In this document: piece after piece, positions 1 to 57,702 of the stretch | Layout of the letters: each line of letters starts with the position of its first letter | How positions within the stretch are numbered: position 1 is the first letter of the stretch | IMG/VR virus record: IMGVR_UViG_3300045988_108509 | Location: 1-64,000 of that record | DNA: 64,000 bases | Strand: one strand, 5' to 3' | Source of the DNA: a virus | Made by a program: the position numbers and the translations under genes | The notes under the pieces: model-generated | What the model was told of the DNA's origin: nothing | What the model saw: the letters and a program-made list of their open reading frames with translations, nothing else | Databases searched by the model: none

Positions 1-20
1 GAGAGGGAGGGCACTCCCTA

Positions 21-200
21 CCAACAAAATTCAACTCCCTACCAACAAAATTCAATAGATAAGCGTTTTAAAACAGTGTTCTGTAGATCATTTCCACAAA
101 ATTCAATAGATAAGCGTTTTAAAACAGTGTTCTGTAGATCATTTCCACAAAATTCAATATGATAAGGGTTTAAAACAGCATTATATAGGTTCCTTCCAAC
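21..200. repeat. Tandem direct repeats: ~51-bp unit CAAAATTCAATAGATAAGCGTTTTAAAACAGTGTTCTGTAGATCATTTCCA at 46-96 and 97-147 (identical), degenerate third copy 148-~198, partial copy 21-45; candidate iteron/origin or terminal-repeat region
   Basis: Read directly: CAAAATTCAATAG motif recurs at 46, 97 and 148 with a 51-bp period. Non-coding, located upstream of the first gene. Confidence 0.8.
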
Positions 201-268
201 AGATTAAGGGTTGAGGACTGCATTATGTGAGTATTTTTTTTTTAAGCGGGATGTTTAACAATTAAAAT

Positions 269-538
269 ATGGATGGTATGAACGTATATGACTTTGCGCC
301 TGACTTAGATTTGAGTAAGGAGGTAGAAGGTTCTATTTTCGGGGTAAAAGGAATAGAAGGCAGTGATGGAATAGTATATGCTAAGGTAGTTAGCTGTGTA
401 GACGTTAAGGATTACAGTTGTGATAGGTGTATTTTTTATGATTGTTATAAGGATAAATGTTTATTATCGCGTAGTGATAGTTGTATAGATGGAGATTGGA
501 TTTGTAGGTACGAACAGGCTGCCATAGAGGGGGAGTAG
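269..538 (+). CDS. small Cys-rich protein (paralog of 1689..1937 and 28712..28909)
   Basis: ORF track; shared pattern F-P-DL(S)-KE-G-F...VKVV...C-D-C-F...C-LS-S-DW-C with ORF 1689. Confidence 0.55.
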   Translation: MDGMNVYDFAPDLDLSKEVEGSIFGVKGIEGSDGIVYAKVVSCVDVKDYSCDRCIFYDCYKDKCLLSRSDSCIDGDWICRYEQAAIEGE

Positions 539-640
539 GCGGCGCCTTGGGCTAAGGCCTGCGGTTGTAGGTGGAACGTAGGTCGGAGCAGAGCCTGGAC
601 AGTTTATTGTGGAACGTAAAAAAGAAGGAGGAGATAGCGA

Positions 641-789
641 ATGTTTGTCATAGAAATAGTGCTGATAGCTATTTTAGATGCTATGGCGCAAGTGAGAAAA
701 ATTTCTTCATTAATTTTCTTATGCTTTAGACAGAATGCTCCCGTCTGCGAAGATCGGAGCATTTGCTTTATGGGATTCATGGTGCAGTA
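641..789 (+). CDS. 49-aa small ORF with strong SD (AAGAAGGAGGAG-N8-ATG); overlaps the conserved hairpin, so it is doubtful
   Basis: Hand translation gives MFVIEIVLIAILDAMAQVRKISSLIFLCFRQNAPVCEDRSICFMGFMVQ. It is below the ORF-track size cutoff. Confidence 0.2.
733..770 (+). terminator. conserved-loop hairpin family member D: stem GAATGCTCC/GGAGCATTT, loop CGTCTGCGAAGATC, then TTGCTTTA
   Basis: Inverted repeat read directly. The loop matches the family consensus YGGYCTGTGAAGRTAK. Confidence 0.45.
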
Positions 790-815
790 GGTCGGTTCGA
801 TTCCGGCGATCTCAC
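771..815 (+). other. tRNA-like T-arm/acceptor minihelix element 1 (TGGGATT...GTCGG-TTCGATT-CCGGC-GATCTCA-C); not a complete tRNA
   Basis: Canonical T-loop GGTTCGATTCC with a 5-bp T-stem. The 3' acceptor-like 7-mer pairs with TGGGATT at 771-777. No D-arm or anticodon arm could be placed. Confidence 0.4.
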
Positions 816-844
816 ACAATATTAAAAACAAAGGAGGAAAGAAA

Positions 845-1186
845 ATGAAAGATGGTATTACATTACATCCAGAACACGGATTGAATCCGTCTATAGAAGT
901 CTGCATGATATGTGGCGAAGAGATGGGGATTGTTTTATTAGGGAATAACATCAAAGGGCAGGCGCCGCATCATATATGCACGGGAGAAATATGTGACAAT
1001 TGCAAAAAGATAATAGATGACGGAGGTTGTTTTATTATCGAAGTCGAGGATGGATCAGATCAAAAGAATCCGTATCGTACAGGGAGATATTGCGCGATAA
1101 AGAAAGAAGCAGCAAAGAAAATACTTGGACAGGAGCATAATATTGTGTACATGGAAAAGTCTGCATACAGTCAAATAATACCATAA
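845..1186 (+). CDS. zinc-ribbon protein (CxxC...CxxC), hypothetical
   Basis: ORF track; strong SD AAAGGAGGAAAGAAA before the ATG. Confidence 0.6.
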   Translation: MKDGITLHPEHGLNPSIEVCMICGEEMGIVLLGNNIKGQAPHHICTGEICDNCKKIIDDGGCFIIEVEDGSDQKNPYRTGRYCAIKKEAAKKILGQEHNIVYMEKSAYSQIIP

Positions 1187-1200
1187 AAATAAAGAAGGAT

Positions 1201-1515
1201 ATGTTTACAAAAGAAGAGCGATTATTCATATGGAAAAAGGTATATGAGATGATTGATAGGTTAGAGAATGGGGAATACATATGTGTTGCGTTAAGAAATG
1301 TAGTGTTTATGTATCTCAAAACACATAAAAATATATATAAGTTTCGTTCAGACGAAATGGTGAGAATATATTTCCCGGAATTGGAGGAGAAGATAAGTAT
1401 GGCCACAGAACCAGAGGGAACAAGAGCGTTTTATGGGTGGTTTGGTTGTCTTAGTCCAGAAACGAAGGAGGTAAGGCTGAGTATTGTGAAAGATATTATA
1501 AAAGAATTAGAATAG
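1201..1515 (+). CDS. hypothetical protein
   Basis: ORF track; compact spacing after the previous gene. Confidence 0.5.
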   Translation: MFTKEERLFIWKKVYEMIDRLENGEYICVALRNVVFMYLKTHKNIYKFRSDEMVRIYFPELEEKISMATEPEGTRAFYGWFGCLSPETKEVRLSIVKDIIKELE

Positions 1516-1561
1516 TATTTTTGTTAATCTATTTTATTCATCAAATTAAGTTTTGGGCTTT

Positions 1562-1603
1562 GGCATGTCGGTTCGTGAGGATAGACATGCCTATTTCTGT
1601 ATC
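1562..1603 (+). terminator. conserved-loop hairpin family member E: stem GGCATGT/ACATGCC, loop CGGTTCGTGAGGATAG, then TATTTCTGTATC
   Basis: Inverted repeat read directly. The loop matches the family consensus. Confidence 0.45.
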
Positions 1604-1606
1604 ATA

Positions 1607-1668
1607 GAGGGATGACGCGGCGTGCCGGTGCGTATGTGCCGGTCCTGGTTCGATTCTGGGCATCTCAC
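1607..1668 (+). other. tRNA-like T-arm/acceptor element 2 (AGGGATG...CCTGG-TTCGATT-CTGGG-CATCTCA-C); downstream 25 nt nearly identical to element 1
   Basis: The GGTTCGATTC T-loop and the ATCTCACA(A/C)AATA(T)TAAAAAC tail are shared with 791-835. The 30-nt internal spacer is too short for D and anticodon arms. Confidence 0.4.
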
Positions 1669-1688
1669 AAATAATAAAACATAATTAT

Positions 1689-1937
1689 ATGGAAGTAATA
1701 ACATTCGGTCCGAACATGGATTTGTCTTCTAAAGAAGCAGGGGATGTATTTAGATTAAAATTGTATGGCATAGAGTATGAGGTCAAAGTAGTTGGTGACG
1801 ACGAAGATCCTCTTATGTTCTGCAAAGATTGTATATTTTTTAACAACTCCGAACGGTGTTCACTCTCAGAATCGCAAGACTGGTGCTTAAAAAAGCAAGT
1901 TGTTTACTGTAAAATAAGACATGATGGGGGAATTTAA
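1689..1937 (+). CDS. small Cys-rich protein (paralog of 269..538)
   Basis: ORF track; motif sharing with ORF 269. Confidence 0.55.
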   Translation: MEVITFGPNMDLSSKEAGDVFRLKLYGIEYEVKVVGDDEDPLMFCKDCIFFNNSERCSLSESQDWCLKKQVVYCKIRHDGGI

Positions 1938-2118
1938 TGCGAAAGACGCCAATTTCTTATGGCGTCAAATTGGTAGGATTGATGGGGTGATAGAAACTCT
2001 GAACCGTACCGAAGGAGAGATGCCGGAAATTATAGCCGGAGTGCTAAAAAGAATAAGAGACGATATAGATAAGTTTGTAGATAATAAAACGAAAGATTAT
2101 GAGAATATACAAGAATGA
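1921..2118 (+). CDS. hypothetical protein
   Basis: ORF track; 17-nt overlap with the previous ORF. Confidence 0.4.
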   Translation: MMGEFNAKDANFLWRQIGRIDGVIETLNRTEGEMPEIIAGVLKRIRDDIDKFVDNKTKDYENIQE

Positions 2119-2332
2119 TATTATAAAGGCGTCAGTAATAAGCACCGGAGCCGACAGAGGTGTGTTGCTGTGTTCAATAACAGATTCAGGCTTTACGTCT
2201 ATAGCGGGCGTAATATCGGCTGTTAAGGATAAGTTACCAAACGAAGATCACAAGAAGATGGTTTTTGAAATCTTGAATGATACGAAAAAAGAGTACGGAA
2301 GATATAATAATTGCGGAACAAAAGTATTGTAA
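2099..2332 (+). CDS. hypothetical protein
   Basis: ORF track. Confidence 0.4.
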   Translation: MRIYKNDIIKASVISTGADRGVLLCSITDSGFTSIAGVISAVKDKLPNEDHKKMVFEILNDTKKEYGRYNNCGTKVL

Positions 2333-2389
2333 TAAAGAGTAGAAAACAATATGTTTATATAATATTAGTTTTTTCATTTTTATTGAAAG

Positions 2390-2427
2390 GAGCGCCGGCC
2401 TGTGAAGGTATGCGCTCTTTGTATTTG
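2390..2427 (+). terminator. conserved-loop hairpin family member A: stem GAGCGC/GCGCTC, loop CGGCCTGTGAAGGTAT, then TTTGTATTTG
   Basis: Read directly. It sits in the intergenic gap after the stop at 2332. Confidence 0.5.
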
Positions 2428-2451
2428 TATAATACATAAAACAATAATAAT

Positions 2452-2706
2452 ATGACAGATAATAACATAGATGTGAATATCGTACCTTTAAGGAATGGTG
2501 CGAAACGAGTTGTGGTATCATATTATCATTATTCACGCAAGGACAAAAATCACATGAGTTCTCAAACGGATTACGTGTGGGAAACAAAGAATGAAGAAAT
2601 GTTTAAATACTTTGAGGCCAGGAGGACAAAAGTATTTTATAGTCAGATTCGTGCCATGTGTAGATTCTATGGCAAGAAAAATGTACGTAAATACAAAAAG
2701 CTATGA
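2452..2706 (+). CDS. hypothetical basic protein
   Basis: ORF track. Confidence 0.45.
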   Translation: MTDNNIDVNIVPLRNGAKRVVVSYYHYSRKDKNHMSSQTDYVWETKNEEMFKYFEARRTKVFYSQIRAMCRFYGKKNVRKYKKL

Positions 2707-3512
2707 TATTAAAAACGACAACCAACGAGTTTTGTTTCATCAGCGTAAGTTTCTATGAAACAATAGCAGATCCTCGATATTTCTTTGAACAAGATTATGA
2801 AGAGATGCCGGAATATGAGGAAGAATCGGATTTTGATTTTGATTCTTATTGCAATAAGTTTATTCCTTTTGTACAGGAATGGGCGAATGAGGTAAGTGAA
2901 CGCCTTTACGGATATGGCGTGAATAACATAAAGGCAACATCGGTCGGACATCCGAGAGAATATAATTATGGTACTGATTGGATGAACGTAGAGGTAGAGT
3001 TTTGTGATGAATGGAGGCAAAAGATGTTATCTAACATTGGTAAGATTGTCAATGATGATAAATGCAAGAAGTATGCGGAGGCTAATTACCGGTCGGTACC
3101 AGGATACATCTTTTTAGGGCCTGAAGATTTAAAGGAATTTGAAAAGGAAATAATAGAAAGAAAGTCAGATTCGGGATATGATGTAACAATATTATTAAAT
3201 ATGTATCTAACTTTGGCTTTTGTAAAAGAATTTGGATTTAAAGCCGGAGAAGCGTGGAGTGATATAACAGGACATGCTTACGAATGTTTGTCGTATTCTG
3301 ATTTTGCAACAATAGAAACACTTATACAAGAAGGTTCGGAATATTTATTCAAAGACGTTTACACAGCGAAGGCCGACGAATTGTATCATCATGTCCTGGA
3401 TAAATTCGGATGGGCGTGGCGTGATCCGAAATATAAATCGGAAACAGAATTATGCGCGATGTTAAAGTGGGCAAAAGAGAAAGGCTTAACCATTGAAGAG
3501 TTAAGTATTTAA
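2703..3512 (+). CDS. hypothetical protein (269 aa)
   Basis: ORF track; no recognisable motifs. Confidence 0.55.
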   Translation: MILKTTTNEFCFISVSFYETIADPRYFFEQDYEEMPEYEEESDFDFDSYCNKFIPFVQEWANEVSERLYGYGVNNIKATSVGHPREYNYGTDWMNVEVEFCDEWRQKMLSNIGKIVNDDKCKKYAEANYRSVPGYIFLGPEDLKEFEKEIIERKSDSGYDVTILLNMYLTLAFVKEFGFKAGEAWSDITGHAYECLSYSDFATIETLIQEGSEYLFKDVYTAKADELYHHVLDKFGWAWRDPKYKSETELCAMLKWAKEKGLTIEELSI

Positions 3513-3525
3513 TTGTTAAACATAA

Positions 3526-3570
3526 GGCAGTAGTGGTGCGTGAGTATAGGTGCTGCCGTTAAAATATTTT
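3526..3570 (+). terminator. conserved-loop hairpin family member B: stem GGCAG/CTGCC, loop containing GTGCGTGAGTATAG, then GTTAAAATATTTT
   Basis: Read directly. It lies 14 nt after the stop at 3512. This copy is the most divergent. Confidence 0.35.
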
Positions 3571-3575
3571 ATAAG

Positions 3576-3824
3576 ATGAAAAAAGAAGAGATTCAAACTA
3601 TTTTATACACAATCAAAGAAGGAGACAGTATTAAGATCAAAGTACAAGACAAAAGTGAAGAGATAAGACTGCGGGATCATGTAAGAAGAACGCAGAAATA
3701 CGGATACAGGTTTTGTTTGTCTCATTTGTATGATGGAATTTTCTATCTGGAGAAGTTGGAAGAAGGGGATAAGGATAAATACTATAGAGTAATAAACAGA
3801 GGAAATGGAAAGACCGGAGTATAA
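3576..3824 (+). CDS. hypothetical protein (start moved to the first ATG, MKKEEIQ...)
   Basis: ORF track 3540..3824 has a GTG start that overlaps the hairpin. ATG at 3576 is preferred. Confidence 0.45.
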   Translation: MKKEEIQTILYTIKEGDSIKIKVQDKSEEIRLRDHVRRTQKYGYRFCLSHLYDGIFYLEKLEEGDKDKYYRVINRGNGKTGV

Positions 3825-4098
3825 TAAGCTACGCAAAATGGTTAAGACTACTCCAGGTCTGATAGTGGACGAGGTGCAAAACATGATGCGTGTATCGCTA
3901 TACGATAATGGGGAACTTAAGAAGGTGGTAGTAGTAATGAAATGCGATTCTTTTTTACAGTCAAAAAGTAACATAGAAAAGATAATGTTATTATCATCTT
4001 CTATAGAAGATAGAAAAAAAAAAGAAAAAAATAAAACAAAATCAGAAAATGAACAGAATAACAAAAATAAGAGAAGAAATAGGAGGAAAACAGGTTGA
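3805..4098 (+). CDS. hypothetical protein with Lys/Arg-rich C-terminus
   Basis: ORF track. Confidence 0.4.
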   Translation: MERPEYNKLRKMVKTTPGLIVDEVQNMMRVSLYDNGELKKVVVVMKCDSFLQSKSNIEKIMLLSSSIEDRKKKEKNKTKSENEQNNKNKRRNRRKTG

Positions 4099-4432
4099 TT
4101 TGACCTTTTACGGGCGCTTTTACAGCCTTATCGAAGGTGATAGAAAGATAATACTAAGGGCGATAAAAAACGGTCGTAAAAAAGGCGTAATCGGAGCCAT
4201 TCAGCCTGGGAGACATGATAGAATTTGGACCACATGGTCTATTGCTTTTGATGATCTGAAGGTAGGGGATACGGTAGAGTTCAGTACATCTGGAAAATAC
4301 AATCCCGGATTTCATGCTACGGAAAAGTATGTAGGGTGTGTAGAATGGATAAAAGGATCGGAATGTGCGATAAAAACCGGCAATGGAATGGCGGTAGTAT
4401 TAATTAAACACGTAGAAAGGGTAGTAAAATGA
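4049..4432 (+). CDS. hypothetical protein
   Basis: ORF track. Confidence 0.5.
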   Translation: MNRITKIREEIGGKQVDLTFYGRFYSLIEGDRKIILRAIKNGRKKGVIGAIQPGRHDRIWTTWSIAFDDLKVGDTVEFSTSGKYNPGFHATEKYVGCVEWIKGSECAIKTGNGMAVVLIKHVERVVK

Positions 4433-4713
4433 TGGGGTTGAGAGAATTTGTAGAACTTTTTGACAAGAATGAAGTAAAGAATTTGTTTAATGCATTGTCT
4501 TCATGTATAGAATACGTAAGGATAGATTTGCATGTATTTAATATAGGTGCTCATGTTGCGTGTCTGTACAGTAATAATCCTGAATTGCTTTCACAGGCAG
4601 AAGGTTGTAATGTGAATATGATAATAGAGGTGCCCTACTTGTTTGAAGCATTTATGGAATACGCTTCACCGGAACTGAAAGCTTATTATGATGAACTAAC
4701 AAGAGAAGTATGA
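4429..4713 (+). CDS. hypothetical protein
   Basis: ORF track; ATGA start/stop overlap with neighbours. Confidence 0.5.
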   Translation: MMGLREFVELFDKNEVKNLFNALSSCIEYVRIDLHVFNIGAHVACLYSNNPELLSQAEGCNVNMIIEVPYLFEAFMEYASPELKAYYDELTREV

Positions 4714-5183
4714 AAGAGGAAGTAGAACGGATAAAGAAGTTGGTAGGCATAGATCATAACAGATGGGAGCAACCTTGTACATGTGATAAATGCAAGAATA
4801 TGTGTAAGGTTCCTTGTATTGGTACGCCAAAAGACATAGAGGCTATCATAGATGCCGGATACGCTGACAGGTTAAAAGAAACAATGTGGATGGTCGGGTA
4901 TCTTGCAGTGAAAGAAAAACCAATAGCGATGATCCAGCCAACAGAAAAAGACGGGTGGTGCGCATTCCGCCAGCCGGACGGTCTCTGCGAGCTGCATGAC
5001 CGAGGACTAAAGCCGACTGAAGGAGTTCTGGCTTCTTGTAAGGTGATTGAAGAAGACGATATTCCGACATACGAAACATCCGTACTTAGAGCAGTAGCTC
5101 ATGAGTGGGTTAAGGTGGAGAACTTCGTAACTATAATGAGGGTCGTTTTTAAATTTTTGCATGAAAATGAACGTGGAAAATAA
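4710..5183 (+). CDS. Cys-rich hypothetical protein
   Basis: ORF track; CxC...CxxC...C cluster. Contains a short GC-rich island near 4960-5030. Confidence 0.5.
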   Translation: MKEEVERIKKLVGIDHNRWEQPCTCDKCKNMCKVPCIGTPKDIEAIIDAGYADRLKETMWMVGYLAVKEKPIAMIQPTEKDGWCAFRQPDGLCELHDRGLKPTEGVLASCKVIEEDDIPTYETSVLRAVAHEWVKVENFVTIMRVVFKFLHENERGK

Positions 5184-5571
5184 ATTAGACAAAGTGGTTA
5201 ATATCCTAAAAGAAAAAGGATTTGTAGTATATAGAAAGGGCGGGAAGGAGCCAGGTGTGTTTTACGCTAAAGAAGGTGACAGCCGGATAGGATTCGTTTA
5301 TCCCAACAACGGATATATATACGACAGGATAAAAATGTGGTCTTTCTCAAGGGTGTATAAACCGCATAAGAAAACAGGGTCTTCGTGCTTAATGTTTGTC
5401 AGCGACGAATTTACTATAGAGAATGCGATTAAGAACATAGAGGATAGACTGTGGGTGAATTATATAAAAGATGGTAACAGAAAACGACCAGAAGAATATA
5501 AAAATATAAGAGAATTTGTTGGTAGCTTCACTAAATTCTACAACTCTGTAGAATTAGTTGAGGTTAAGTAG
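5161..5571 (+). CDS. hypothetical protein
   Basis: ORF track. Confidence 0.5.
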   Translation: MKMNVENKLDKVVNILKEKGFVVYRKGGKEPGVFYAKEGDSRIGFVYPNNGYIYDRIKMWSFSRVYKPHKKTGSSCLMFVSDEFTIENAIKNIEDRLWVNYIKDGNRKRPEEYKNIREFVGSFTKFYNSVELVEVK

Positions 5572-5592
5572 TTTTCCATGCGAGTTAGTTGC

Positions 5593-5630
5593 CGGCACTG
5601 GTCTGTGAAGATAGGTGCCGTTTTTTTATT
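5593..5630 (+). terminator. conserved-loop hairpin family member C: stem CGGCAC/GTGCCG, loop TGGTCTGTGAAGATAG, then TTTTTTTATT (the best intrinsic-terminator-like copy)
   Basis: Read directly. It lies 22 nt after the stop at 5571 and has a strong T-tract. Confidence 0.6.
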
Positions 5631-5648
5631 CAAGAAAGGAGGACAAAG

Positions 5649-5900
5649 ATGGAGAAAAGAGACAAGAAGATGCCTTACGAGGTAGTCATACAGGAAAGAA
5701 AAAGAGTGGATTTGTACGGTAACGTAGTGTATTATATCCATTGGTTTGATAAATATGGGTACAATATCACAAAAGAATGGAAATTCTGGAGCAAGGGCCC
5801 GAAAAAGAAATATGATAGAGTTAATCGTTATCTAACGGATAGTTGGCTGAAGGAATACTGTGGGAATAACAATTTAAAGATAAGTAGAATTAAGGAATGA
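5649..5900 (+). CDS. hypothetical protein (start moved to the ATG after SD AAAGGAGGA)
   Basis: ORF track 5589..5900. The internal Met MEKRDKK is preceded by a strong SD, and upstream of it lies the terminator. Confidence 0.5.
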   Translation: MEKRDKKMPYEVVIQERKRVDLYGNVVYYIHWFDKYGYNITKEWKFWSKGPKKKYDRVNRYLTDSWLKEYCGNNNLKISRIKE

Positions 5901-6418
5901 AAACGATAAAAGTAGACAAAGTGATATTATATTACATGGATCGGGTAGACCCTGACGGGAACTTATACCGGTTCTATGTGTATAAAGGAATGGCATCTGA
6001 AATAGAATACTTTTGCACGGAAGAGGCAGGTAATATGACTATACCAATCGGAGAAGGAAAGTATATTGAAATCATGCCAAAAGAAATAGAGAAAATACCA
6101 GTAAGGGGATACAGGAGGCTTGCTGGAATATGGAATCGTGAAACATGTAACGGGAAGGGATGGTATAGGCTTTTTAATTATTTCAAATACAAGCCAGACA
6201 TATGTTATATTAAAAACATAGGGCGTGATAAAAATGGAAACACAAGATATGAAATATCATTATTTAATGCCACTATGAATGTGACAAGGTATTTTAATCT
6301 GTGGAGAATGAAGCCAGGGAAGCATGTTATGATAACAAACGAGTACGGAGTCTTGGATATTATAAAAGAAAAATTCGATAACATAAATATAGTGGAATAT
6401 AGTGGAATATGGTTCTAA
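5897..6418 (+). CDS. hypothetical protein
   Basis: ORF track; 10-bp tandem duplication ATAGTGGAAT x2 at its 3' end. Confidence 0.5.
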   Translation: MKTIKVDKVILYYMDRVDPDGNLYRFYVYKGMASEIEYFCTEEAGNMTIPIGEGKYIEIMPKEIEKIPVRGYRRLAGIWNRETCNGKGWYRLFNYFKYKPDICYIKNIGRDKNGNTRYEISLFNATMNVTRYFNLWRMKPGKHVMITNEYGVLDIIKEKFDNINIVEYSGIWF

Positions 6419-11315: not shown

Positions 11316-12389
11316 ATGAACAATTCAATGGTCGCTTCAATGGTCGCTCACTTGTGGGCTCATGAACAAGAAGAATCAGCATCAGGGAGCAATTTCTTCT
11401 TTGAAGGTACAAGTATTTATTCTTACGGGCATCACTTTGAAGTCGGGAGAATAGTAAAAAACAAACAAGGGAAGAAGGCATACCTGATAAATGAAGATTA
11501 TTATTCTGTTACCACGAGCAAATATCAACGCTATGTTCGTAATGCGATACCAACTCAGGCAATGGTTTTCAGTGTAGGGGATAATATATCGGATACTGGT
11601 AATATGAGGTTTGTTGTCAGCAAACTGGAATCAATTAAGAAGTCTATTGAAAAATACAAAAGAGCTAAAACAGAATTATCTTATACAGATATTTGGGGCG
11701 CTTTTGGGAATATGATGGATTACATTCAGTTCTTTAACATGGGAACTCCCCAGCGTCTTCTTAAAAAGAGTGCAAACGAATGGCTTGGAACTAACCATAA
11801 ATTATCATGGAAATCAGATAATATTAAACGTGAATATGTCCGTGAGTTGAAACGTGTTTTCCAGATCTTGTTGAATCATCAAGTACTGGAAGTTCTTGGA
11901 ACCGTTAATGTGATTGTTGATGAAGTTTGCGGGGAAGGTACATGGATTAAGTATTCAGAAAGATCTGAAAGATGGAGAAAGGGTGAGGAAGAAAGAGAAA
12001 GAATAAAATTAGAGAGATTAAGAAAGGAAGAAGAAGCCCATTACAAGGATTTTGATGAAAAACTGGAAGAGTGGAAGTCAGGAGAAATCAATTTCTTGAA
12101 TACACCTTTCTATATTCCTGATGAAAAACCTAACGCCTGGATTCGTATAAAAGGAAATATTATTGAGACAAGTAAACAGATAAAGATTGGAATAGCAGAA
12201 GCCAGAAAACTGTGGCGGGCTGTGTCGGCAATGCACCGGGGCGCCGAGTTTCGGCACGGTCTGGTGGAGGACGTCACCGGTCACCAGTGGAGTCTAAATC
12301 GGTACGAAAACGATTTGTTAACCGCTGGATGTCATCGGATAGCATATAACGAAATGGAGAGAATAGCAAAACAACTGGGATGGGTTTAA
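11316..12389 (+). CDS. hypothetical protein (357 aa)
   Basis: ORF track; GC-rich island at 12228-12300 in its C-terminus. Confidence 0.55.
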   Translation: MNNSMVASMVAHLWAHEQEESASGSNFFFEGTSIYSYGHHFEVGRIVKNKQGKKAYLINEDYYSVTTSKYQRYVRNAIPTQAMVFSVGDNISDTGNMRFVVSKLESIKKSIEKYKRAKTELSYTDIWGAFGNMMDYIQFFNMGTPQRLLKKSANEWLGTNHKLSWKSDNIKREYVRELKRVFQILLNHQVLEVLGTVNVIVDEVCGEGTWIKYSERSERWRKGEEERERIKLERLRKEEEAHYKDFDEKLEEWKSGEINFLNTPFYIPDEKPNAWIRIKGNIIETSKQIKIGIAEARKLWRAVSAMHRGAEFRHGLVEDVTGHQWSLNRYENDLLTAGCHRIAYNEMERIAKQLGWV

Positions 12390-12430
12390 GTAACCCATCT
12401 TATTTTATAACAACTAAAAACAAGAAAAAT

Positions 12431-22002: not shown

Positions 22003-22472
22003 TGATAAGAAGTCATGGCTTATGCCAGGCTTGCAGGAGCAAAGAGTTGACTCCGAAGAAAAAAAACAGAATTACATCCATTAAAAACAGCAGCAAGAAG
22101 AAAAAGTTAGAGAACCCGGATTTATCCGGGTTTTTTCGTCTTATGTTGGAGGAGTTGAGTACTATTCGAATGTCTATGACTGGTAAAGCTATTCATTTTC
22201 CTACAGTATGTAACGTCTGTCACATACTTCCGAAAAGGTTATATAAGTCGGTTGCCACTTGCAGGGATAATATAGTTTTCCTTCATGAATCAGAGCATAC
22301 GGTATTCGACATGTATCTTGACCGGATGGAATTTGATAAACTTGAAACAGAATTTCCTTTTGTGTGGAAGTATGCGGTAAAGAAGGTGCTGGATATGGAA
22401 AGCAGGGGAATGATTAAAGAAAGAGGTAGATTAATTATTGAAATAATTGACAGATATGAGAAAACTTTATAA
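21948..22472 (+). CDS. zinc-ribbon protein with possible HNH-like motif (CNVCH...N...H)
   Basis: ORF track; N-terminal CxxC...CxxC; C-terminal His/Asn pattern. Confidence 0.35.
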   Translation: MESKEKKLYVCEKCGRKVMIRSHGLCQACRSKELTPKKKNRITSIKNSSKKKKLENPDLSGFFRLMLEELSTIRMSMTGKAIHFPTVCNVCHILPKRLYKSVATCRDNIVFLHESEHTVFDMYLDRMEFDKLETEFPFVWKYAVKKVLDMESRGMIKERGRLIIEIIDRYEKTL

Positions 22473-36335: not shown

Positions 36336-36375
36336 GAGATTGTGTCAAAATGCTGGCACAATCTCTTTTCGTTTA
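36336..36375 (+). terminator. Rho-independent terminator: perfect 9-bp stem GAGATTGTG/CACAATCTC, 12-nt loop, then TTTTCGTTT
   Basis: Read directly. It lies 70 nt after the stop at 36266. Confidence 0.7.
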
Positions 36376-40973: not shown

Positions 40974-41020
40974 ACAACAGTCCCCAACCATACAATAGGC
41001 GTACGGTTGGGGACTGTTGT
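40974..41020. terminator. bidirectional Rho-independent terminator between convergent gene blocks: perfect 16-bp stem ACAACAGTCCCCAACC/GGTTGGGGACTGTTGT, 15-nt loop
   Basis: Read directly. It lies between the + stop (40930) and the - stop (41020-41022). Confidence 0.75.
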
Positions 41021-42422: not shown

Positions 42423-42456
42423 ACCGGTTCCCTATCATCTCTGACTGAGAACCGGT
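42423..42456 (-). terminator. hairpin ACCGGTTC-N18-GAACCGGT, followed on the minus strand by TTTCTTTTATGTT; terminator after the 2140-aa gene
   Basis: Read directly. Confidence 0.45.
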
Positions 42457-42592: not shown

Positions 42593-45500
42593 CTATTTGT
42601 AGCTTGTATCCTCATCACCTTCCGAATCAGGAGTGGCGCCGATGAAGAACATCATTGACTTGTTGTTCGTCTGCTGCCACCAATTATAAGCGCGCGCTAC
42701 GTCTTCCGGCGTCTTGATATTATACCATTGTTTGATAAACGTCTGTTTGGCGAGTTGCCTAAATAACTTAGACTCTCCTTTGTATGTGCCGGATGTTACT
42801 TTATCAAGTGAATAATTCCTAAGATCGGTAAGATCCTTCAGTTTCCGCCCCATAACAAACGGATCATTAATGATATCTACTACGTTAAGCTCCATAATAA
42901 ACGGCATCTGTGAAGCTATTTCGTTTATGGTTCTGAATCCGACATAGGATCCGAATTGAGTAAGCCAACTTTCTTCGTTTTCATCATCATCACGCCATCC
43001 GGCAAGAAGCATAGATACGGCCTGCATGATAAGGAACGTGCCGGCATAGACACTGAGACGTTTGAGATTGGTTTTTTCTACCTCATTCATATTGTCTTTA
43101 TTTTCATTCCAGGCATCTATGATGTTTTTCATACCAGACTCGGAAGCTAAGCTAAATGTTTTGGCTATCATATTCTTTAACGTAATTGACAGTCCTTCCT
43201 CTTCTTGCATTGTCTGGAAATTGAAGCCACGTCTTTTCCACAGACGTTGAGCCGCCAGCACCAACCATCCTCGGTGGGCGGTCATGAACCTGGCTATCCA
43301 GTTGCGCGATGCGGCAGTTCGGTTTTCTTCATTCAAAGATCCGTTACATATCTGCGACAAGCTACGGACTTGATTCCTGGTTATAGCCATCTGGGTTTCT
43401 ACTTCCTCAACAGTAACACCCGATCCGGGCTTTACAACCACCTTCCCATCCACGACGTCTACCATACTCCATAAAGTACGATCTTTTAATGCATTCCATT
43501 CTCTTTTTATGGTACTCTGTTCTTTATTGCGTTCTTTTTCCATCTTGAAATCTTGGAACGTGTAGAACCGGCCTTTGTAATAACGAACATTGTCCATAGT
43601 AGCAATCATAACCTGCGGATCAAGAGGGTAGTTCAGGATTTCCATAAAAGCATACATAGGCGAACGCATTAAGGTCCTGGCCGCTCTATTGTATCCGGCA
43701 CCATACATACGATTTCGGATATTGAATATCCCCATTCTCTCACCTATGACATATAATTTGCTTTTCCTATCTATGTCTCCGGTTTCTGCTATACAAGATG
43801 ACGCAAGACGTGAAAACTCAGCCGATGCGTATTTAAGGGAGTCTTTGCTTATATACTGTCCTACGGCAGATTCCATGATGAGGTTGATATGACCTGTCAG
43901 GGCGCCGGTAGCTGCCACAAACGGAGACAGTGCCAAGTTCATAACCGACATAAATCTTTCAACAGCCATCATAATTCTTGTAAGGTCTACCGTATATCCT
44001 CCGATGTTCACCGTAAGTTTTTTGGTGTTCATCCTAATGCCATAATAATGATCGTTGAAGAAGTCCCTGAACATCTGATATGCTTGGGTTGCTTCAGCCT
44101 TTTTACCGCCTTCAAATTGTTTGTTCAGCAACATCTGCTCCAGTCCTTGAGCGAGCTCTATAGACTTCTGCTTTTCGTTGTATAACGATGACTGCATCAT
44201 AAGCATCGAATAAGAGTAGCCAAAATCGTGAGATACATCATCTTGGTTCTCCAACTCATATATGTAGTATTTAGGTATAGACCTAAGTCTGTCTTCCGGA
44301 TCATATACTTCCCCTTGCCTGGTCTTACCATATAGAGAATCGTCTACTCTGTCCAGGCACAGATCTGATACAAAATTACGAACCGTATTTTTGAAGTTAA
44401 TACCCAATCCTTCCATACGTTCTATGTCTTGTTTTGATATCTGTGGAATAGCATACAAATTGGGACTCTGCTCTTTGTATAGATCAAGGGATTGTCTTTT
44501 TATTTCCTTGAGTTTTTGAATCATATTCCACTGCTCTACGTTTTTAGTAGCAACTTCATTACCGTCAGCATCATACTTGATACCAAAGTCATTGAAATAC
44601 GATTCATCACGATACAGGCTTTTCTTAGGCATGCGATGACCATACCCATGATCTTTTACATAATCAGGATTACGGCCGCTATTTTCGGCTTCAGATTCAG
44701 CCACCCATGCCCTTGCAGGATCGAAAGACAGGTACGATATGTCCATGCCATAATCTTGGGTGGATGTACCGTTTTGTACGTCCTTAACCATCTGCGCCAC
44801 ATCTATCTCACCTCGACCTATTTTGTCGATCATGGCCGCATATCCGGTAGGCGCCATGCGTTTATAGTACGAAAAGACCTGGCTCCTGGCAAATTCATTA
44901 ACAATAGCATTGGTCTCTTCTATGCCCTCTTCTCTTGTATTATTTAAAAACAAGCTGGCCATCTTAGCATTAACAGCATTCCTGAAATCTCTACCGTCTA
45001 ATTCTTTGCTTATACCAAGCTTTTCTGACAGGTAGTTGGTTTCAGATACGGTAAACAGATATCGGTTATCAGCAGCCTTAAACAGCTTATCCCTTAAAGC
45101 CTGAATCCTTTTTGCTTTCTTCGCCGTAGTATGACGTTGTACGAACTTCCATTCCACTTCCTTGGAGTCAGCAAGAGCATTTAAATAAGACTGATTTACT
45201 TCGTTTTCGGCCTTACTGCTTTTAGTAAGGTACTTATCAATATCTTCAAGACCCACCATCTTAGCATAATCTATTAAGATAGCGTAATCAGCTTCAATAG
45301 CTTCAGATGCGGCCCTAAAAGCATCTCTTTCAGATGAGGTAAATGTCGCTTCGTTAATTTCTCCGATATCAGCCACATCTCGGTTGTTTCCGATTATTTC
45401 CTTGATAATGGCCTTATTTTTTTCTATATCTTTCACAATCGAATCCACGTCAGTCGCATCTCTATCACTTGTCGTAGAACTAATGATATCATGCGCCATT

Positions 45501-48500
45501 TTAAGATACGAAGCCTTGTTATTTGATTCGGTACGCGCCGACTGTTCCGATTCTACGTCATTCCAAAACCGATCGTTGAATGACAGGTGACCCCCCAACA
45601 TAAGCGTCTTCAGCGCAGCTTCTCCTCCTGACTCGTTCTGAATCGTTCTTAATTTTTGCAAAAACGATTCTGATACGGCATTAGTGGCATTATTTGATTC
45701 TTTTCTCCAAACTTCATTTATGGCTTGTATTTCTTTGGCCATCTTAAGTTGGTCGCCGGTTTTTTCCACTCTCCTGGTTCCTACATATATGTATTCTGAA
45801 GCTGCTTCCTTACGTTGTTTACGAAGCAGTCCTTCTTCTTCGTAATTGCTGCTTTTAAAATAGGCAACCTCATCAAAATTACCACCGCTATCAATAAAAG
45901 GCTGCCTCAATATCCGTTTTTGCCTGGATAGAGCATTAAGGTATTCTTTGGTTGTTTGAGAAACCGGATGCCCTAATTCTTCTTCAGCCTTTTTGTATAT
46001 GGATTCCATTCTTGTGGCATAACTTTCGCTAAATTCCAGTTCCGAATTTTCAGCATCCCACTTTTCCATCTGCTCTGTATAGATCTTTTCCTGCTCGATG
46101 GTAAAAATATCGGTATTAACTCTATCAGACGATGGTTTGAATTTAGCGTTTTCAGTAACCGTATTTCCATCCTTGTCAACTACTTCTCTTTTAAATACGT
46201 AATTACGGTTATTGTCAACCACATCACCAATTTCTTCTTCTGATATCTCTATGTTCATGGCAGTCGCAAACGCTCGCATCTGCGCCAGCTTCTTATTACG
46301 ATCGTATTTAGCCATATCAAGAGCACTACGAAGGTAATTAGAAGTTTTGCCGTCTACTTTCTGAAGCAGTTTTTCAAATTCAGATTTGTTAAAACCATGC
46401 TTTTTAGCATATGCCAGGAAGTCGGATATGGCGGGCTGGGCATTCACCATCGCATTGTAATTGTCTTTGGCAATCATAGCTCCAAGAGCGTTATTGAACG
46501 GGCTGGAGGAATGTTCTAATATACCGAACCACCTACTTATCCAAGAAACATCGTGTTGAACCTTGTCAAAAAATTCTTTTACTCTCTTTACCTTATCTGC
46601 CGGCACATGAAGTTCGTTCATTAACTTATCAAGCAACGTACTTTCATCAAGGTCTTGTACTGATTTAATATCAGAATGAATACCATTGATGTCGGCAATG
46701 ACGGTATTGATCCTATTTGTATAATCCTGCTTTTCACGTTCATCAAATTCGGTACTTCTGTTACGGATATATCCTCGAAGATCGTTCATGATCGGAAGAA
46801 CCTGATTGTTGATAATATCTACGTTCTTTCGATCATTGGTATTGAAGTGAAGCTTACCGTCTTTGGTATCACCATGAAGGATGGTGTTTACCACATTACT
46901 TAAGTATCTGACCTGAGCTTCGGCTGTGGAGATCATGCTGTTCATGGCAGCCGCCATCTCATTCTTGTCTATTTCGGTCTCTACCTTATTTATCTTATCT
47001 TCTATGGTCTTAAGCTGCGCAAGGGTCATAGACGTAGTTACAGCCCTATCAGAGCTTATCTGACGTAAGTCTCTTAAGGTTTTTCTTAATGCCAGGATCT
47101 TAGACTCAAGAAACTTGTTCTTGTTCATAGAAGAAAGGGAGTATAATGTAAAGTCATTATCCTTTAACAGAGAGGTGTCAAATCCTTTATCTATGTCAGT
47201 AATGGCAAGATCACGAATGTTTTTAATAACGTTATTCAAATCTTGTCTTTGGGTTGATAAAGCTGATTTAAGCCAGCTTACGATTCCAGATAGAAACTGC
47301 CGGACGCGCCCCAGGAAGGAGGTGGGCTCTACCGGCGCCTGCGCTGTGCCGGTCTGCATCTCCCTGGCGAGGATCTTTCCAAGAATTTCTCTCCTAACGG
47401 CATTATCAAGCTCAGCTCCTTCATATACCTTACCGTATGTATTATAATACTGACCTGCATACTGGTTCCACTCTTCCGTACCTTCTACATCTTGCAGAAC
47501 AGCCTCAACAGCATTCTGATCTCTGTATGCCTCTACAAGGAAGTGGGCTGTTTCTTCTACTAAATCGGATAAAGTAGCATCTTCACCAACTGCTATTACG
47601 TTATTGGCAATATCCGCCAATGCCTTAGCAGAAGGTTCATGCCCGTATTTGGTTTGGTACTTCTCTATATAGTCGGTCATACCTATGACACTAACGCCAA
47701 GAGTTTTCAGTATCTCGACAATAGAATTTCGTTGGTCACGTTCCTGCCTGCTATAATCTGATACGATCTTAGCTTTAGTATCAGCATAAAGATCGTTGTC
47801 TTCTAATATGAATGAAACTACAAGCGCATCAAAATGATCGTACTTGGCGTCCAATTCATTGTATCTTCCTGACTTAAGATCGTTCTTTATCTGCTCTTTG
47901 CTAACCCTTTCCGTTCCTCCGGTGGCGAGTCTCATCGTTACCTTACTGTTATCCAACGAGCTTATGGTTATCATACCTTGATCGTTCATGGAAACATCGG
48001 AACCAAAATGATTACGGAGCTCAGTGTAGGATAAGGCTGAATTGAAAAGTCTAATTTGTCCTGTATGACCTTCTCCTGTAAGATAATAGCTTCTTGTTTC
48101 AGGATCGAATATCTTAGATCCGGACAAAAGACCTTTCTTTATAAGGTAGTTAATTATACCACCTTTTGTTGATAAAGAAGTGGAAGCAGAAGCGGTCATG
48201 ACCGGTATAAAAGATTTTGGATTATTAAGAACATACTTTCCAGCTTTGTAAGTAATGTCTGCCACGCCATCCACGGTAGATTCTTGAACAGTGCCTGATA
48301 AGAATCCTATTCTAATATCATTCCCGCCAGAGCGAAGAGCTTCTCCGTAATCTTCAAATAATTGACTACGATCGTTCATGAAAAACAAACGAGGCTCTCC
48401 GGTCTGATACGTTACACCCACAGGATTAGAATCTGTCTGTGGTAACTCTTCTGGGCTAAATATCTTAAGACCGTCTTTTATAACCATATAATTAACACCC

Positions 48501-49046: not shown

Positions 49047-49075
49047 GTTAAAAATCAAGCATATCATAAAAAATA

Positions 49076-49105
49076 AAGCCATCTAACTTCTCAGTCTGAT
49101 GGCTT
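49076..49105. terminator. hairpin AAGCCATC-N14-GATGGCTT flanked by A-runs on + (T-runs on -); terminator separating the upstream small-gene block from the 2140-aa gene
   Basis: Read directly. Confidence 0.55.
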
Positions 49106-49157
49106 AAAAATAATATGAAAAAAAATTATAATCTGACGAAAAATCGTCAAGTTCAGC

Positions 49158-49481: not shown

Positions 49482-49500
49482 GCCACAAATATATAAAAAA

Positions 49501-49525
49501 AGTCGGACAAGACACATGTCCGACT
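49501..49525 (-). terminator. hairpin AGTCGGACA-N7-TGTCCGACT, followed on the minus strand by TTTTTTATATATTTG, 8 nt before the ATG at 49481
   Basis: Read directly. Confidence 0.45.
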
Positions 49526-49530
49526 TTATA

Positions 49531-49701
49531 TTACTTTGATTCATTTTCAAACCGCTTTATAAGAGAAGCAATATCATCACCACAAACAAACATCATTCGA
49601 CGTTCTTCTTTTGGTTTATGAGACACTGGGATGGTTTTGTTTATCTTAATCTGATTCGCCAGACCTCTGCCTAAACGAATATCAACTTTTTTACCTTTCA
49701 T
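49531..49701 (-). CDS. 56-aa small basic ORF (MKGKKVDIRLGRGLANQIK...)
   Basis: Hand translation; below the track cutoff. Confidence 0.25.
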   Translation of the reverse strand: MKGKKVDIRLGRGLANQIKINKTIPVSHKPKEERRMMFVCGDDIASLIKRFENESK

Positions 49702-52940: not shown

Positions 52941-53408
52941 ATAGAATACTTTTTCAACAAAAGTACGACATTCATGAATTAATTAGATTTAAAATAAAAC
53001 AATATGAATTAAAATAAAAACCCGATACGTTAAAATCGCATCGGGCCTGGTATTGAAAAAAAATAGGTTCAGATCTTGGGTAAAGATTCGAGCCAATTTT
53101 TAACATCTTTATATTTAGGGTCTTTGTCTATTCTATCTTTCAGTTCATGCAATGCTGAGTCCATAACCGTATTCGGTACGCCAATCAACTCTCCTATTAA
53201 ATACAATGGGGTTTTATTCGATTTAGATTCGTGTGCTATATTCATGTCAAAAAAAAGTTATGTGAAACAAACCGGCCACGGGTATTCTATTGCCCGCCGA
53301 CCGGTATAATATTTTTATTCTTTTTTTTCCAAACGGGAAAAACGGGAATGCGGGAATCATATTTTTTACTATGGCTCCCGCACCACCGGAAGGACCTGGA
53401 TCTGGATC

Positions 53409-57479: not shown

Positions 57480-57702
57480 TTCCTACTGTTATTAGTTACG
57501 TCCGGTTCTTACTTTTTCCTATTTCTATAATCCCTTCCTGAAACTAATATTGCAAACTTAATAAAAATAATTCATAAACAATGAAAATCTAACTTTTCTT
57601 GTATGTTATTGATATACGTGCATATATGAGAAAAGTGAGACTTTCACAAGCCTCACTTCCCAAATTATAACTATGAAAAAACTATATATATGTACACAAA
57701 AA

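What the first reader, a model, noticed from the sequence alone, without database searches (positions are those of the whole stretch)
733..5630. Family of five stem-loops with a conserved 16-nt loop (YGGYCTGTGAAGRTAK) and co-varying stems
Hairpins at 733-770, 1562-1603, 2390-2427, 3526-3570 and 5593-5630 have unrelated stem sequences that stay complementary. Their loops are nearly identical: CGTCTGCGAAGATC, CGGTTCGTGAGGATAG, CGGCCTGTGAAGGTAT, ...GTGCGTGAGTATAG, TGGTCTGTGAAGATAG. Each is followed by a T-rich run, and three sit just downstream of stop codons. Conservation of loop sequence with stem covariation points to a structured RNA or DNA element recognised by a protein. Candidates are an antiterminator, an RNase or a regulator. 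It looks more specific than a generic intrinsic terminator. All copies lie in the first 5.7 kb of the window.
Basis: seen in the sequence. Interest (0 to 1): 0.7.

Follow-up and report, generated by a model that had tools for sequence, protein, structure and literature searches.

The report
Conserved-apex RNA hairpins of Bacteroidales phages
The five stem-loops are real and belong to a widespread, apparently undescribed family of RNA hairpins in phages of gut Bacteroidales, which sit at gene ends as terminator-like structures or directly in front of tRNA and tRNA-like genes and share a fixed 16-base tip.

Summary
All five hairpins exist at the stated places. The "16-nt loop" is not a loop. It is a first pair Y-G, a 1x1 purine·A (or C·C) mismatch, a G·U pair, usually U-A, two covarying pairs and a GNRA (mostly GUGA) tetraloop, on a freely varying 7-9 bp stem.

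A covariance model built only from unrelated contigs recovers all five, plus two more on the minus strand at 42.4 and 49.1 kb. So the family is not confined to the first 5.7 kb.

The window is a crAss-related gut phage, 94% identical to csAssE-Sib. The exact tip GGTCTGTGAAGATAGG occurs in at least 120 viral contigs, against 15 for a reversed control. It also occurs in Bacteroides phage crAss001 and in Bacteroidales genomes, always with different complementary flanks. A marine relative, phi17:2, has none.

About half the public copies are followed by a U-tract, as intrinsic terminators are. Many others lie 3-6 nt upstream of a tRNA or a tRNA-like RNA. In the window, hp1 and hp2 precede tRNA-like minihelices.

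Best reading: sense-strand RNA hairpins that mark transcript boundaries. The fixed tip implies an unidentified recognition partner. No Rfam family or paper matches. Function is inferred, not shown.

The parts
733..764 (+). hp1: 9-bp stem, C·C mismatch, GUCU/AGAU apical helix, GCGA tetraloop. Followed after 6 nt (GCUUUA, 765-770) by the tRNA-like element TLS-A.
   Evidence: R2 gives 24.2 bits, E 1e-3. Compensatory stem variants occur in relatives: gaaugcucc/ggagcauuu, gagugcucc/ggagcacuu and gaacgcucc/ggagcguuu.
1562..1591 (+). hp2: 8-bp stem, G·A mismatch, GUUC/GGAU apical helix, GUGA loop. Lies 47 nt after the stop at 1515. Followed by a U-rich stretch, then TLS-B.
   Evidence: R2 gives 35.4 bits, E 1.3e-6. 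The ortholog in L089 keeps the hairpin, has AUUUUUUU after it and a TTTG-N23-TAAGTTTG promoter-like box before it.
2387..2420 (+). hp3: 9-bp stem, 2x2 internal loop (CG/AU), GCCU/AGGU apical helix, GUGA loop. Lies 55 nt after the stop at 2332 and 31 nt before the ATG at 2452.
   Evidence: R2 E 2.8e-3.
3526..3557 (+). hp4: 7-bp stem, 3x3 region (G·G, U·G, G·A), GUGC/GUAU apical helix, GUGA loop. Lies 14 nt after the stop at 3512 and 18 nt before the ATG at 3576.
   Evidence: R2 E 1.8e-3. In relatives the third pair G·U changes to G-C (gcat).
5593..5620 (+). hp5: 7-bp stem, G·A mismatch, GUCU/AGAU apical helix, GUGA loop, then UUUUUUU. This is a canonical intrinsic-terminator layout. Lies 22 nt after the stop at 5571. 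Its tip, GGTCTGTGAAGATAGG, is identical to the widespread 16-mer.
   Evidence: R2 gives 40.6 bits, E 5.5e-8. Searches show the same 16-mer elsewhere.
42423..42456 (-). Family member on the - strand: 10-bp stem, A·A mismatch, GUCA/UGAU apical helix, GAGA loop, then UUCUUUUAU. Lies 140 nt after the stop of the 2140-aa ORF.
   Evidence: R2 E 6e-4.
49076..49105 (-). Family member on the - strand: 8-bp stem, A·A mismatch, GACU/AGUU apical helix, GAGA loop, then UAUUUUUUAU. Lies 61 nt before the ATG of the 2140-aa ORF.
   Evidence: R2 E 2.4e-3.
57630..57661 (-). Marginal member: continuous 14-bp helix with the G·U in place and a GUGA loop, but no mismatch and no U-tract. Lies 42 nt after the stop of the 752-aa ORF.
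   Evidence: R1 gives 22.8 bits. R2 gives only E 0.22. Fold.
771..814 (+). TLS-A: tRNA-like minihelix directly after hp1. It has an acceptor-like stem UGGGAUU/GAUCUCA and a T arm GUCGG-UUCGAUU-CCGGC.
   Evidence: Read from the sequence. Variants in relatives keep the pairs. ARAGORN does not call it and Rfam has no match.
1609..1666 (+). TLS-B: tRNA-like element after hp2. It has an acceptor-like stem GGGAUG/CAUCUC, an 8-bp hairpin with a 4-nt loop, and a T arm CCUGG-UUCGAUU-CUGGG.
   Evidence: 98.4% of cells pair in 13 variants, mostly through one-sided changes, and this is not significant against shuffles. Conserved in L089.

Best explanation
The five elements are sense-strand RNA stem-loops of one modular family used by phages of gut Bacteroidales. 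A few host genes use it too.

**Anatomy.** The basal stem is free to vary as long as it pairs. The tip is fixed: 5'-Y R G U N N G U G A N N A U A G-3'. That reads as a Y-G pair, a purine·A mismatch, G·U, U-A, two covarying pairs and a GNRA tetraloop.

**Proposed function: marking transcript boundaries.**
1. With a U-tract behind them they act as intrinsic terminators or leaky attenuators for the host RNA polymerase. They then remain as a nuclease-resistant 3' cap. This fits hp5 and the copies at 42.4 and 49.1 kb well, and hp2-hp4 more weakly.
2. Without a U-tract they form the leader 3-6 nt upstream of a tRNA or tRNA-like RNA. In the window hp1 fits this, 6 nt before TLS-A; hp2 also precedes a tRNA-like element (TLS-B), but 17 nt upstream and across a U-rich stretch. 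RNase P cleavage there would leave the hairpin as the 3' end of the upstream RNA.

**The fixed tip** is most simply explained by recognition by a still unidentified Bacteroidales or phage factor, or by a tertiary contact.

**Shown:** the structure, the strand, family membership, the distribution and the two sequence contexts. **Inferred:** termination, processing and any binding partner.
For: **Structure and strand**
- RNAfold gives the same fold for all copies.
- Orthologs in 80 relatives show compensatory stem changes. The apical G·U changes to A-U or G-C, and the loops stay GNRA.
- In 47 diverse copies 94.6% of cells pair, with many G·U pairs.

**Membership, tested independently**
- R2, built from outside sequences only, finds all five plus two copies on the - strand.

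**Placement**
- All copies are intergenic and point the same way as the genes.

**Terminator signature**
- hp5 is followed by U7.
- Orthologs and paralogs in L089 are followed by AUUUUUUU.
- 30 of 66 unique public copies have at least 5 T in the next 10 nt (26 of them at least 6).
- Some copies lie between convergent genes, including a chromosomal Bacteroidaceae locus.

**tRNA link**
- In crAss001 the hairpin ends 5 nt before tRNA-Glu.
- In csAssE-Sib copies lie just 5' of tRNA-Arg and tRNA-Met.
- In 8 of the 80 scanned IMG/VR loci a called tRNA starts 3-11 nt downstream. Many others have tRNA-like RNAs there.

**Specificity**
- The exact 16-mer occurs in at least 120 viral stretches, against 15 for the reversed control.
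- 109 of 120 real matches have at least 6 of 8 flanking pairs, and 97 have at least 7. No control match reaches 7.
- In 596 Gb of genomes, copies with complementary flanks are almost all in Bacteroidales.
- There are none in the marine relative phi17:2 or in 15 control loci.
Against: - No transcript ends were available, so termination and processing are not shown.
- hp1 and hp4 have poor U-tracts, and hp2 and hp3 have interrupted ones.
- An intrinsic terminator needs no particular hairpin sequence, so termination alone does not explain the fixed tip.
- In several contigs a Bacteroides-type -7 box (TAnnTTTG) lies 3-6 nt upstream of the hairpin. That would put the hairpin at the 5' end of a transcript, not the 3' end.
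- The window also has ordinary terminators without this tip, so the tip is not required for termination in this phage.
Confidence: 0.55

Rival explanations
1. The hairpin is above all a binding site for a specific RNA-binding protein or endoribonuclease, from phage or host. That partner would regulate or process the flanking RNAs, as an antiterminator, a processing nuclease or a translational regulator. The terminator-like context would be secondary.
For: - Sequence is fixed in the tip while the stem varies. This resembles protein-bound hairpins such as the IRE or boxB.
- The mismatch, G·U, U-A and GUGA keep a fixed spacing.
- Among hairpins not selected for the 16-mer, 34 of 45 have G·U at pair 4, and 25 have a 1x1 mismatch exactly at position 5.
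- The same tip is used in two different contexts.
Against: - No candidate partner was identified.
- Phage lineages as different as crAss001, the csAssE group and 30-60 kb contigs share the tip, and so does at least one chromosomal host terminator. That argues against a factor encoded by one phage lineage.
- The copy number and the placement after late genes do not fit nut-like sites.
Confidence: 0.25
2. The hairpin is the 5'-terminal stem-loop of primary transcripts that start at a promoter immediately upstream. It would protect the downstream mRNA, tRNA or tRNA-like RNA from 5'-end-dependent decay.
For: - Exact Bacteroides -7 boxes lie 2-8 nt upstream in several families: TAACTTTG, TACGTTTG, TATGTTTG and TAAGTTTG.
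- The hairpins are tightly coupled to the 5' end of the downstream tRNA (3-11 nt), not to the upstream tRNA (43-81 nt).
- In the window the hairpins lie 18-31 nt before the next start codon.
Against: - The promoter box is present in only a minority of copies, mostly the families linked to tRNA-like RNAs.
- A U-tract right after a 5'-terminal hairpin would abort the transcript.
- Copies between convergent genes have nothing downstream to protect.
Confidence: 0.12
3. These are ordinary, independent intrinsic terminators. Their similar tips would reflect only the general preference for GNRA tetraloops or recent duplication.
For: GNRA and UUCG tetraloops are common in terminator hairpins (established knowledge). 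hp5 looks fully canonical.
Against: - The mismatch at position 5 and the G·U at pair 4 are not needed for stability, yet they are conserved across unrelated stems and phage families.
- The 16-mer is at least 8-fold enriched over a same-composition control.
- Many copies lack U-tracts and precede tRNAs.
Confidence: 0.05
4. This is a DNA-level element: a single-stranded DNA hairpin promoter of the N4 type, a replication or nicking site, or a transposase-recognised palindrome like REP.
For: - The hairpins lie upstream of genes and near a genome end.
- The phage family carries large virion proteins, and csAssE-Sib carries TnpB genes.
Against: - The invariant G·U and many other G·U pairs would be A·C mismatches on the other strand.
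- The orientation always follows the genes on both arms.
- GNRA loops stabilise RNA, not DNA.
- The stems are not conserved, unlike REP.
- Copies occur in small phages and in host chromosomes.
Confidence: 0.03

Closest known systems
Intrinsic (Rho-independent) terminators capped by stable tetraloops
   Same: A G+C-rich hairpin with a GNRA tetraloop lies downstream of ORFs, points the same way as transcription, and is often followed by a U-tract. This holds for hp5, the 42.4 and 49.1 kb copies, and about half of the public copies.
   Different: - A 16-nt tip, including a mismatch and a G·U, is conserved across unrelated stems and phage families.
- Many copies have no U-tract and sit directly 5' of tRNA or tRNA-like genes.
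Intercistronic C(UUCG)G hairpins of phage T4 (Tuerk et al. 1988; recalled from memory, not re-read here)
   Same: A phage genome is peppered with intergenic hairpins that share an unusually stable tetraloop and closing pair on variable stems. They are thought to stabilise or end transcripts.
   Different: - The loop here is GUGA, not UUCG.
- The conserved part extends 6 positions down each strand and includes non-Watson-Crick pairs.
- The motif is shared between phage families of one host order.
Lambda/P22 boxB (nut) hairpins bound by N protein
   Same: A small phage RNA hairpin with a GNRA-type loop and a conserved tip.
   Different: - boxB is a 5-bp stem with a pentaloop, next to boxA, with one or two copies per genome downstream of early promoters.
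- Here there are at least 7 copies per 64 kb, including after late genes, with U-tracts or tRNAs behind them.
REP/BIME elements
   Same: Imperfect palindromes in intergenic regions after genes, with many copies and a set orientation, able to stabilise mRNA 3' ends.
   Different: REP copies share their whole sequence. Here only the tip is shared and the stems are unrelated.
GibS sRNA internal hairpin (Rfam RF04182, Bacteroides)
   Same: Similar layout: a stem, an internal loop, G...U, three pairs and a GUGA(U) loop, in the same host genus.
   Different: The match is weak, at 22.8 bits against a gathering score of 115, E 7.6. The mismatch is in a different register. This is a resemblance only.

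Membership tests
Intrinsic terminator | Stable G+C-rich RNA hairpin | tested here: met
   Energies of -16 to -21 kcal/mol and z-scores of -2.3 to -4.2 for hp1-hp5. Energies of -14.6 to -19.6 for the - strand copies.
Intrinsic terminator | Run of U directly after the stem | tested here: inconclusive
   - Met by hp5 (U7) and by the copies at 42.4 and 49.1 kb.
- Interrupted in hp2 and hp3, poor in hp1 and hp4.
- 30 of 66 public copies have at least 5 T in the next 10 nt.
Intrinsic terminator | Lies downstream of a gene on the same strand | tested here: met
   hp2-hp5 lie 14-55 nt after stop codons. The - strand copies follow - strand ORFs.
Intrinsic terminator | RNA 3' ends map to the U-tract | not testable with these tools
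   No transcript data were available.
Any Rfam 15 family | Covariance-model score at or above the gathering threshold | tested here: not met
   No matches in the whole window. At E up to 10 in 1-6000, only chance-level GibS and SNORD98 matches appear.
boxB/nut antitermination site | Short 5-bp stem with a GNRA-like pentaloop, next to boxA, one or two sites after early promoters | tested here: not met
   Helices of 13-15 bp with a tetraloop. At least 7 copies on both gene arms. boxA was not searched for.
REP-like repeated palindrome | The whole element is conserved in sequence among copies | tested here: not met
   Outer stems are unrelated. 12 of 13 pairs show changes on both sides.
N4-type single-stranded DNA hairpin promoter | DNA hairpin with a 5-7 bp stem and a 3-nt loop, functional on the template strand | tested here: not met
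   A tetraloop and stems of 13 bp or more. G·U pairs make the complementary strand unable to form the same helix.
Group II intron domain 5 | AGC triad at the base, 2-nt bulge on the 3' strand, GNRA loop, intron context | tested here: not met
   No conserved AGC. The mismatch is a symmetric 1x1, not a bulge. There is no intron context.
tRNA (for the elements after hp1 and hp2) | Cloverleaf with a 7-nt anticodon loop, detected by ARAGORN or the Rfam tRNA model | tested here: not met
   ARAGORN finds no genes in the window and Rfam has no tRNA match. Only the acceptor-like stem and the T arm are present.
Conserved-apex hairpin family defined here (YRGU-NN-GNGA-NN-AUAG on a variable stem) | Match to a model built from members outside this phage group | tested here: met
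   R2 gives E 5.5e-8 to 2.8e-3 for hp1-hp5 and 6e-4 and 2.4e-3 for the two - strand copies.

The most novel reading that the evidence does not exclude
The fixed tip is the recognition site of a dedicated RNA-binding protein or nuclease that is common to Bacteroidales, or widely shared by their phages. The cassettes of promoter, hairpin and tRNA-like RNA, in the window and in many gut phage contigs, are a new class of phage non-coding RNA genes. Their tRNA-like product would be released by RNase P and could, for example, be a substrate or decoy for tRNA-directed enzymes.
Probability: 0.25. Interest if true: 0.8.

Novelty: new variant of a known kind. Interest (0 to 1): 0.58.

Why it matters
- crAss-like and other Bacteroidales phages are among the most abundant viruses of the human gut, and their RNA biology is almost unmapped.
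- A hairpin with a fixed 16-nt tip, shared across phage families of one host order, gives a ready marker for transcript boundaries. It also marks unannotated tRNA-like RNA genes in these genomes.
- The fixed tip points to an unknown recognition partner, which could be fished out with the hairpin as bait.
- The hairpin offers compact terminator or insulator parts for Bacteroides engineering.
- If it turns out to be only a favoured terminator design, the finding is modest.

Tried and rejected
- **Known RNA families.** The Rfam gathering and E-value scans gave nothing. The GibS match is at chance level.
- **tRNA detection.** ARAGORN found none in the window.
- **Simple terminator scan.** It missed the family because of the internal mismatch.
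- **Virion RNA polymerase.** I looked for evidence that the 2140-aa ORF is a crAss-type virion RNA polymerase. It matches only a PHROG "virion structural protein", with no PDB sequence match. Early-gene-specific polymerase termination therefore stays untested. It is also unnecessary, since copies occur after late genes.
- **Ro60/Y-RNA binding site.** Rejected. The Y-RNA-like genes next to Ro60 in csAssE-Sib have their own, different conserved stem.
- **Other structural motifs.** I considered the sarcin-ricin loop, the k-turn, SRP helix 8, group II domain 5 and 16S helix 12. They share only the GNRA cap and do not fit the mismatch register. This rests on reasoning from the sequence, not on a tool.
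- **Literature.** Searches for the phage name, for the 16-mer, and for crAss or Bacteroides terminator hairpins found nothing relevant. The theta-ribozyme paper does not mention such hairpins.
- **Lineage inheritance.** Rejected. Cellulophaga phage phi17:2, the nearest cultured relative by capsid protein, has no copy.
- **Gene-orientation census.** It gave 46 tandem, 11 convergent and 3 divergent contexts. It rests on crude ORF calls and is only indicative.

Full report
**What the window is**

The first 6 kb match phage csAssE-Sib at 94% identity (OR575929, 151 kb, human gut). Its annotation shows crAss-type ring and muzzle proteins, a Ro60 homologue, tRNAs, a CCA-adding or poly(A) polymerase, Pnkp, a DGR and TnpB genes. 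By capsid protein, the nearest cultured relatives are Cellulophaga phages phi17:2 and phi4:1, at 34% identity. In the window, genes run on the + strand to about 41 kb and on the - strand after that.

**Checking the observation**

All five hairpins are present, at 733-764, 1562-1591, 2387-2420, 3526-3557 and 5593-5620. RNAfold gives each the same architecture at -16 to -21 kcal/mol:
- a 7-9 bp outer stem;
- an internal mismatch: C·C in hp1, G·A in hp2 and hp5, and a 2x2 or 3x3 loop containing G·A in hp3 and hp4;
- a 4-bp apical helix that starts with G·U;
- a GNRA tetraloop (GCGA or GUGA).

In a gapless alignment of seven window copies, 94.5% of cells pair and 11 of 13 pairs change on both sides.

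Within 80 closely related contigs the orthologous hairpins behave as a helix should:
- hp1 shows compensatory stem changes in three versions.
- The apical G·U changes to A-U or G-C.
- The loops change only within GNRA.

**The family extends beyond the finding**

Model R1, built from the five copies, also finds copies on the - strand at 49075-49106, 57630-57661 and 42424-42455. All lie between - strand genes.

Model R2 is the cleaner test. It was built from 34 hairpins taken only from unrelated contigs and genomes. It recovers all five with E from 5.5e-8 to 2.8e-3, plus 42424-42455 and 49075-49106. The copy at 57630 is marginal, with E 0.22.

In the complete csAssE-Sib genome, further copies lie right after the Ro60 gene (followed by U7), between tRNA-Gln and tRNA-Arg, and by eye just before tRNA-Met. 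The claim that all copies lie in the first 5.7 kb therefore does not hold.

**Wider distribution**

- More distant gut relatives keep the family and add new copies. Their neighbouring protein is 59-78% identical. Most of their copies are followed by A plus five to eight U.
- Bacteroides phage crAss001 belongs to a different order-level lineage. It has one strong hit whose 16-nt tip is identical to hp5. That hit ends 5 nt before tRNA-Glu.
- The exact 16-mer GGTCTGTGAAGATAGG was searched in viral contigs with hp5 orthologs excluded. A reversed control of the same composition occurs in 15.
- Of the real matches, 109 of 120 have at least 6 of 8 complementary flanking positions, and 97 have at least 7. 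No control match reaches 7.
- In 596 Gb of bacterial and archaeal genomes there are 64 matches. Those with complementary flanks are almost all in Bacteroidales. Several sit in prophage-like regions. At least one lies between convergent chromosomal genes.
- phi17:2 has none, and neither do 15 control loci.

The motif therefore follows the host order or habitat, not the phage lineage.

**Consensus**

I examined GNRA-capped long hairpins in the flanks of those contigs that were not selected for the 16-mer. Of 45 such hairpins:
- 34 have G·U at the fourth pair;
- 30 have U-A at the third pair;
- 31 have a GUGA loop;
- 25 have a 1x1 mismatch exactly at position 5 (17 G·A, 7 A·A).

The two pairs next to the loop covary freely. 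The first outer pair is C-G or U·G. The conserved core is 5'-Y R G U N N G U G A N N A U A G-3'.

The invariant G·U, and the many other G·U pairs, would be A·C on the opposite strand. Orientation always follows the genes. The element therefore acts on the sense strand, most probably as RNA.

**Two contexts**

Sixty-six unique public copies carry the exact tip.
- 30 have at least 5 T in the next 10 nt, which is the intrinsic-terminator signature.
- Many of the rest are followed after 3-6 nt, usually ending in U, by a tRNA that ARAGORN calls (Glu, Ser, Arg or Asp). In the 8 loci with a tRNA close downstream, it starts 3-11 nt after the hairpin. Where an upstream tRNA was also called, it ends 43-80 nt before the hairpin.
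- Others are followed by tRNA-like RNAs that have an acceptor-like stem and a T arm but an aberrant middle. ARAGORN does not call these, and Rfam gives no match for the one example scanned (L120).
- One contig shows both uses in a single unit: hairpin, tRNA-like RNA, then hairpin plus U-tract.

The window mirrors this.
- hp1 is followed after 6 nt by a tRNA-like minihelix (771-814).
- hp2 is followed by another (1609-1666). Its pairs are kept in relatives, but mostly through one-sided changes, so statistical support is weak.
- hp5 and the two - strand copies have the canonical terminator layout.
- hp3 and hp4 have weak tails.

Some families have an exact Bacteroides -7 promoter box, TAnnTTTG, a few nt upstream of the hairpin. 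These are mostly the ones linked to tRNA-like RNAs, and they include the hp2 ortholog in L089.

**Interpretation**

The best-supported reading is a modular RNA hairpin that marks transcript boundaries.
- With a U-tract it acts as a terminator or attenuator and as a 3' cap.
- Before tRNA or tRNA-like RNAs it acts as a leader. RNase P cleavage would turn it into a 3' cap on the upstream fragment.

Neither role needs the fixed tip. The tip therefore points to an unidentified recognition partner or tertiary contact. Phage families that share only their host order all have the tip, at least one host terminator uses it, and the marine relative lacks it. A host-order-level factor is thus more likely than a protein of one phage lineage. 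All functional steps are inferred, because no transcript data were available.

I weighed several rivals and score them in the report sections:
- a purely protein-binding regulatory site;
- a 5'-terminal stabiliser;
- generic terminators;
- a DNA-level element.

**Novelty**

No Rfam family matches. No paper in the library contains the 16-mer or describes such hairpins. The closest precedents are tetraloop-capped intrinsic terminators and the intercistronic CUUCGG hairpins of T4, which I recall from memory. I rate this a new variant of a known kind. There is a moderate chance that it marks a new RNA-protein recognition system and a new class of phage tRNA-like RNA genes.

Noticed in passing
window 771-814 and 1609-1666 (+): Two tRNA-like elements lie directly after hp1 and hp2. 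Each has an acceptor-like stem and a T arm with the loop UUCGAUU, but no D arm or anticodon arm. ARAGORN does not call them and Rfam does not match them. Similar cassettes of module hairpin plus tRNA-like RNA occur in unrelated gut phage contigs, for example L120 about 1133-1245 and L109 6600-6380 on the - strand.
   Followed up: partly
window 13-197 (+): The left end carries direct repeats: three 51-nt units (45-95, 96-146, 147-197) and 21-nt units (13-33, 34-54). This could be a genome terminus or an array of early promoters or binding sites.
   Followed up: partly
window 40975-41019: A very strong hairpin with a 16-bp outer helix (19 pairs in the + strand fold; -32 kcal/mol, z -8) lies exactly where + strand genes meet - strand genes. 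It is stable on both strands and is probably a bidirectional terminator.
   Followed up: partly
window 626-631, 832-837, 5637-5642 (+): Strong AGGAGG Shine-Dalgarno-like boxes precede early-gene start codons. This is unexpected for a phage whose relatives and motif distribution point to Bacteroidales hosts, which generally make little use of Shine-Dalgarno pairing (established knowledge).
   Followed up: no
L083 22560-23000 (csAssE-Sib record 72.5-73.0 kb): The genes annotated tRNA-Tyr and tRNA-Lys, just upstream of the Ro60 gene, share a conserved 5' box (UGGUGAnGG...UUACUUCGAA). They look like Y-RNA-like (YrlA-type) RNAs with a tRNA-like domain, not true tRNAs. A third similar unit lies further upstream.
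   Followed up: no
window 12376-12402, 22110-22135, 36336-36365 (+); 49493-49534, 53018-53048 (-): These are ordinary terminator-like hairpins with 5-7 nt loops and U-tracts and without the conserved tip. The phage therefore uses both designs.
   Followed up: no
window 42593-49015 (-): A 2140-aa ORF matches only PHROG 37651, "virion structural protein", and has no PDB sequence relative. Its size and position recall the giant virion proteins or RNA polymerase of crAss-like phages, but this was not established.
   Followed up: partly
window 538-600 (+): A G+C-rich stretch in an A+T-rich intergenic region between ORF 269-538 and hp1. The predicted fold is no better than shuffles (z +1.05), so there is no evidence of structure.
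   Followed up: partly
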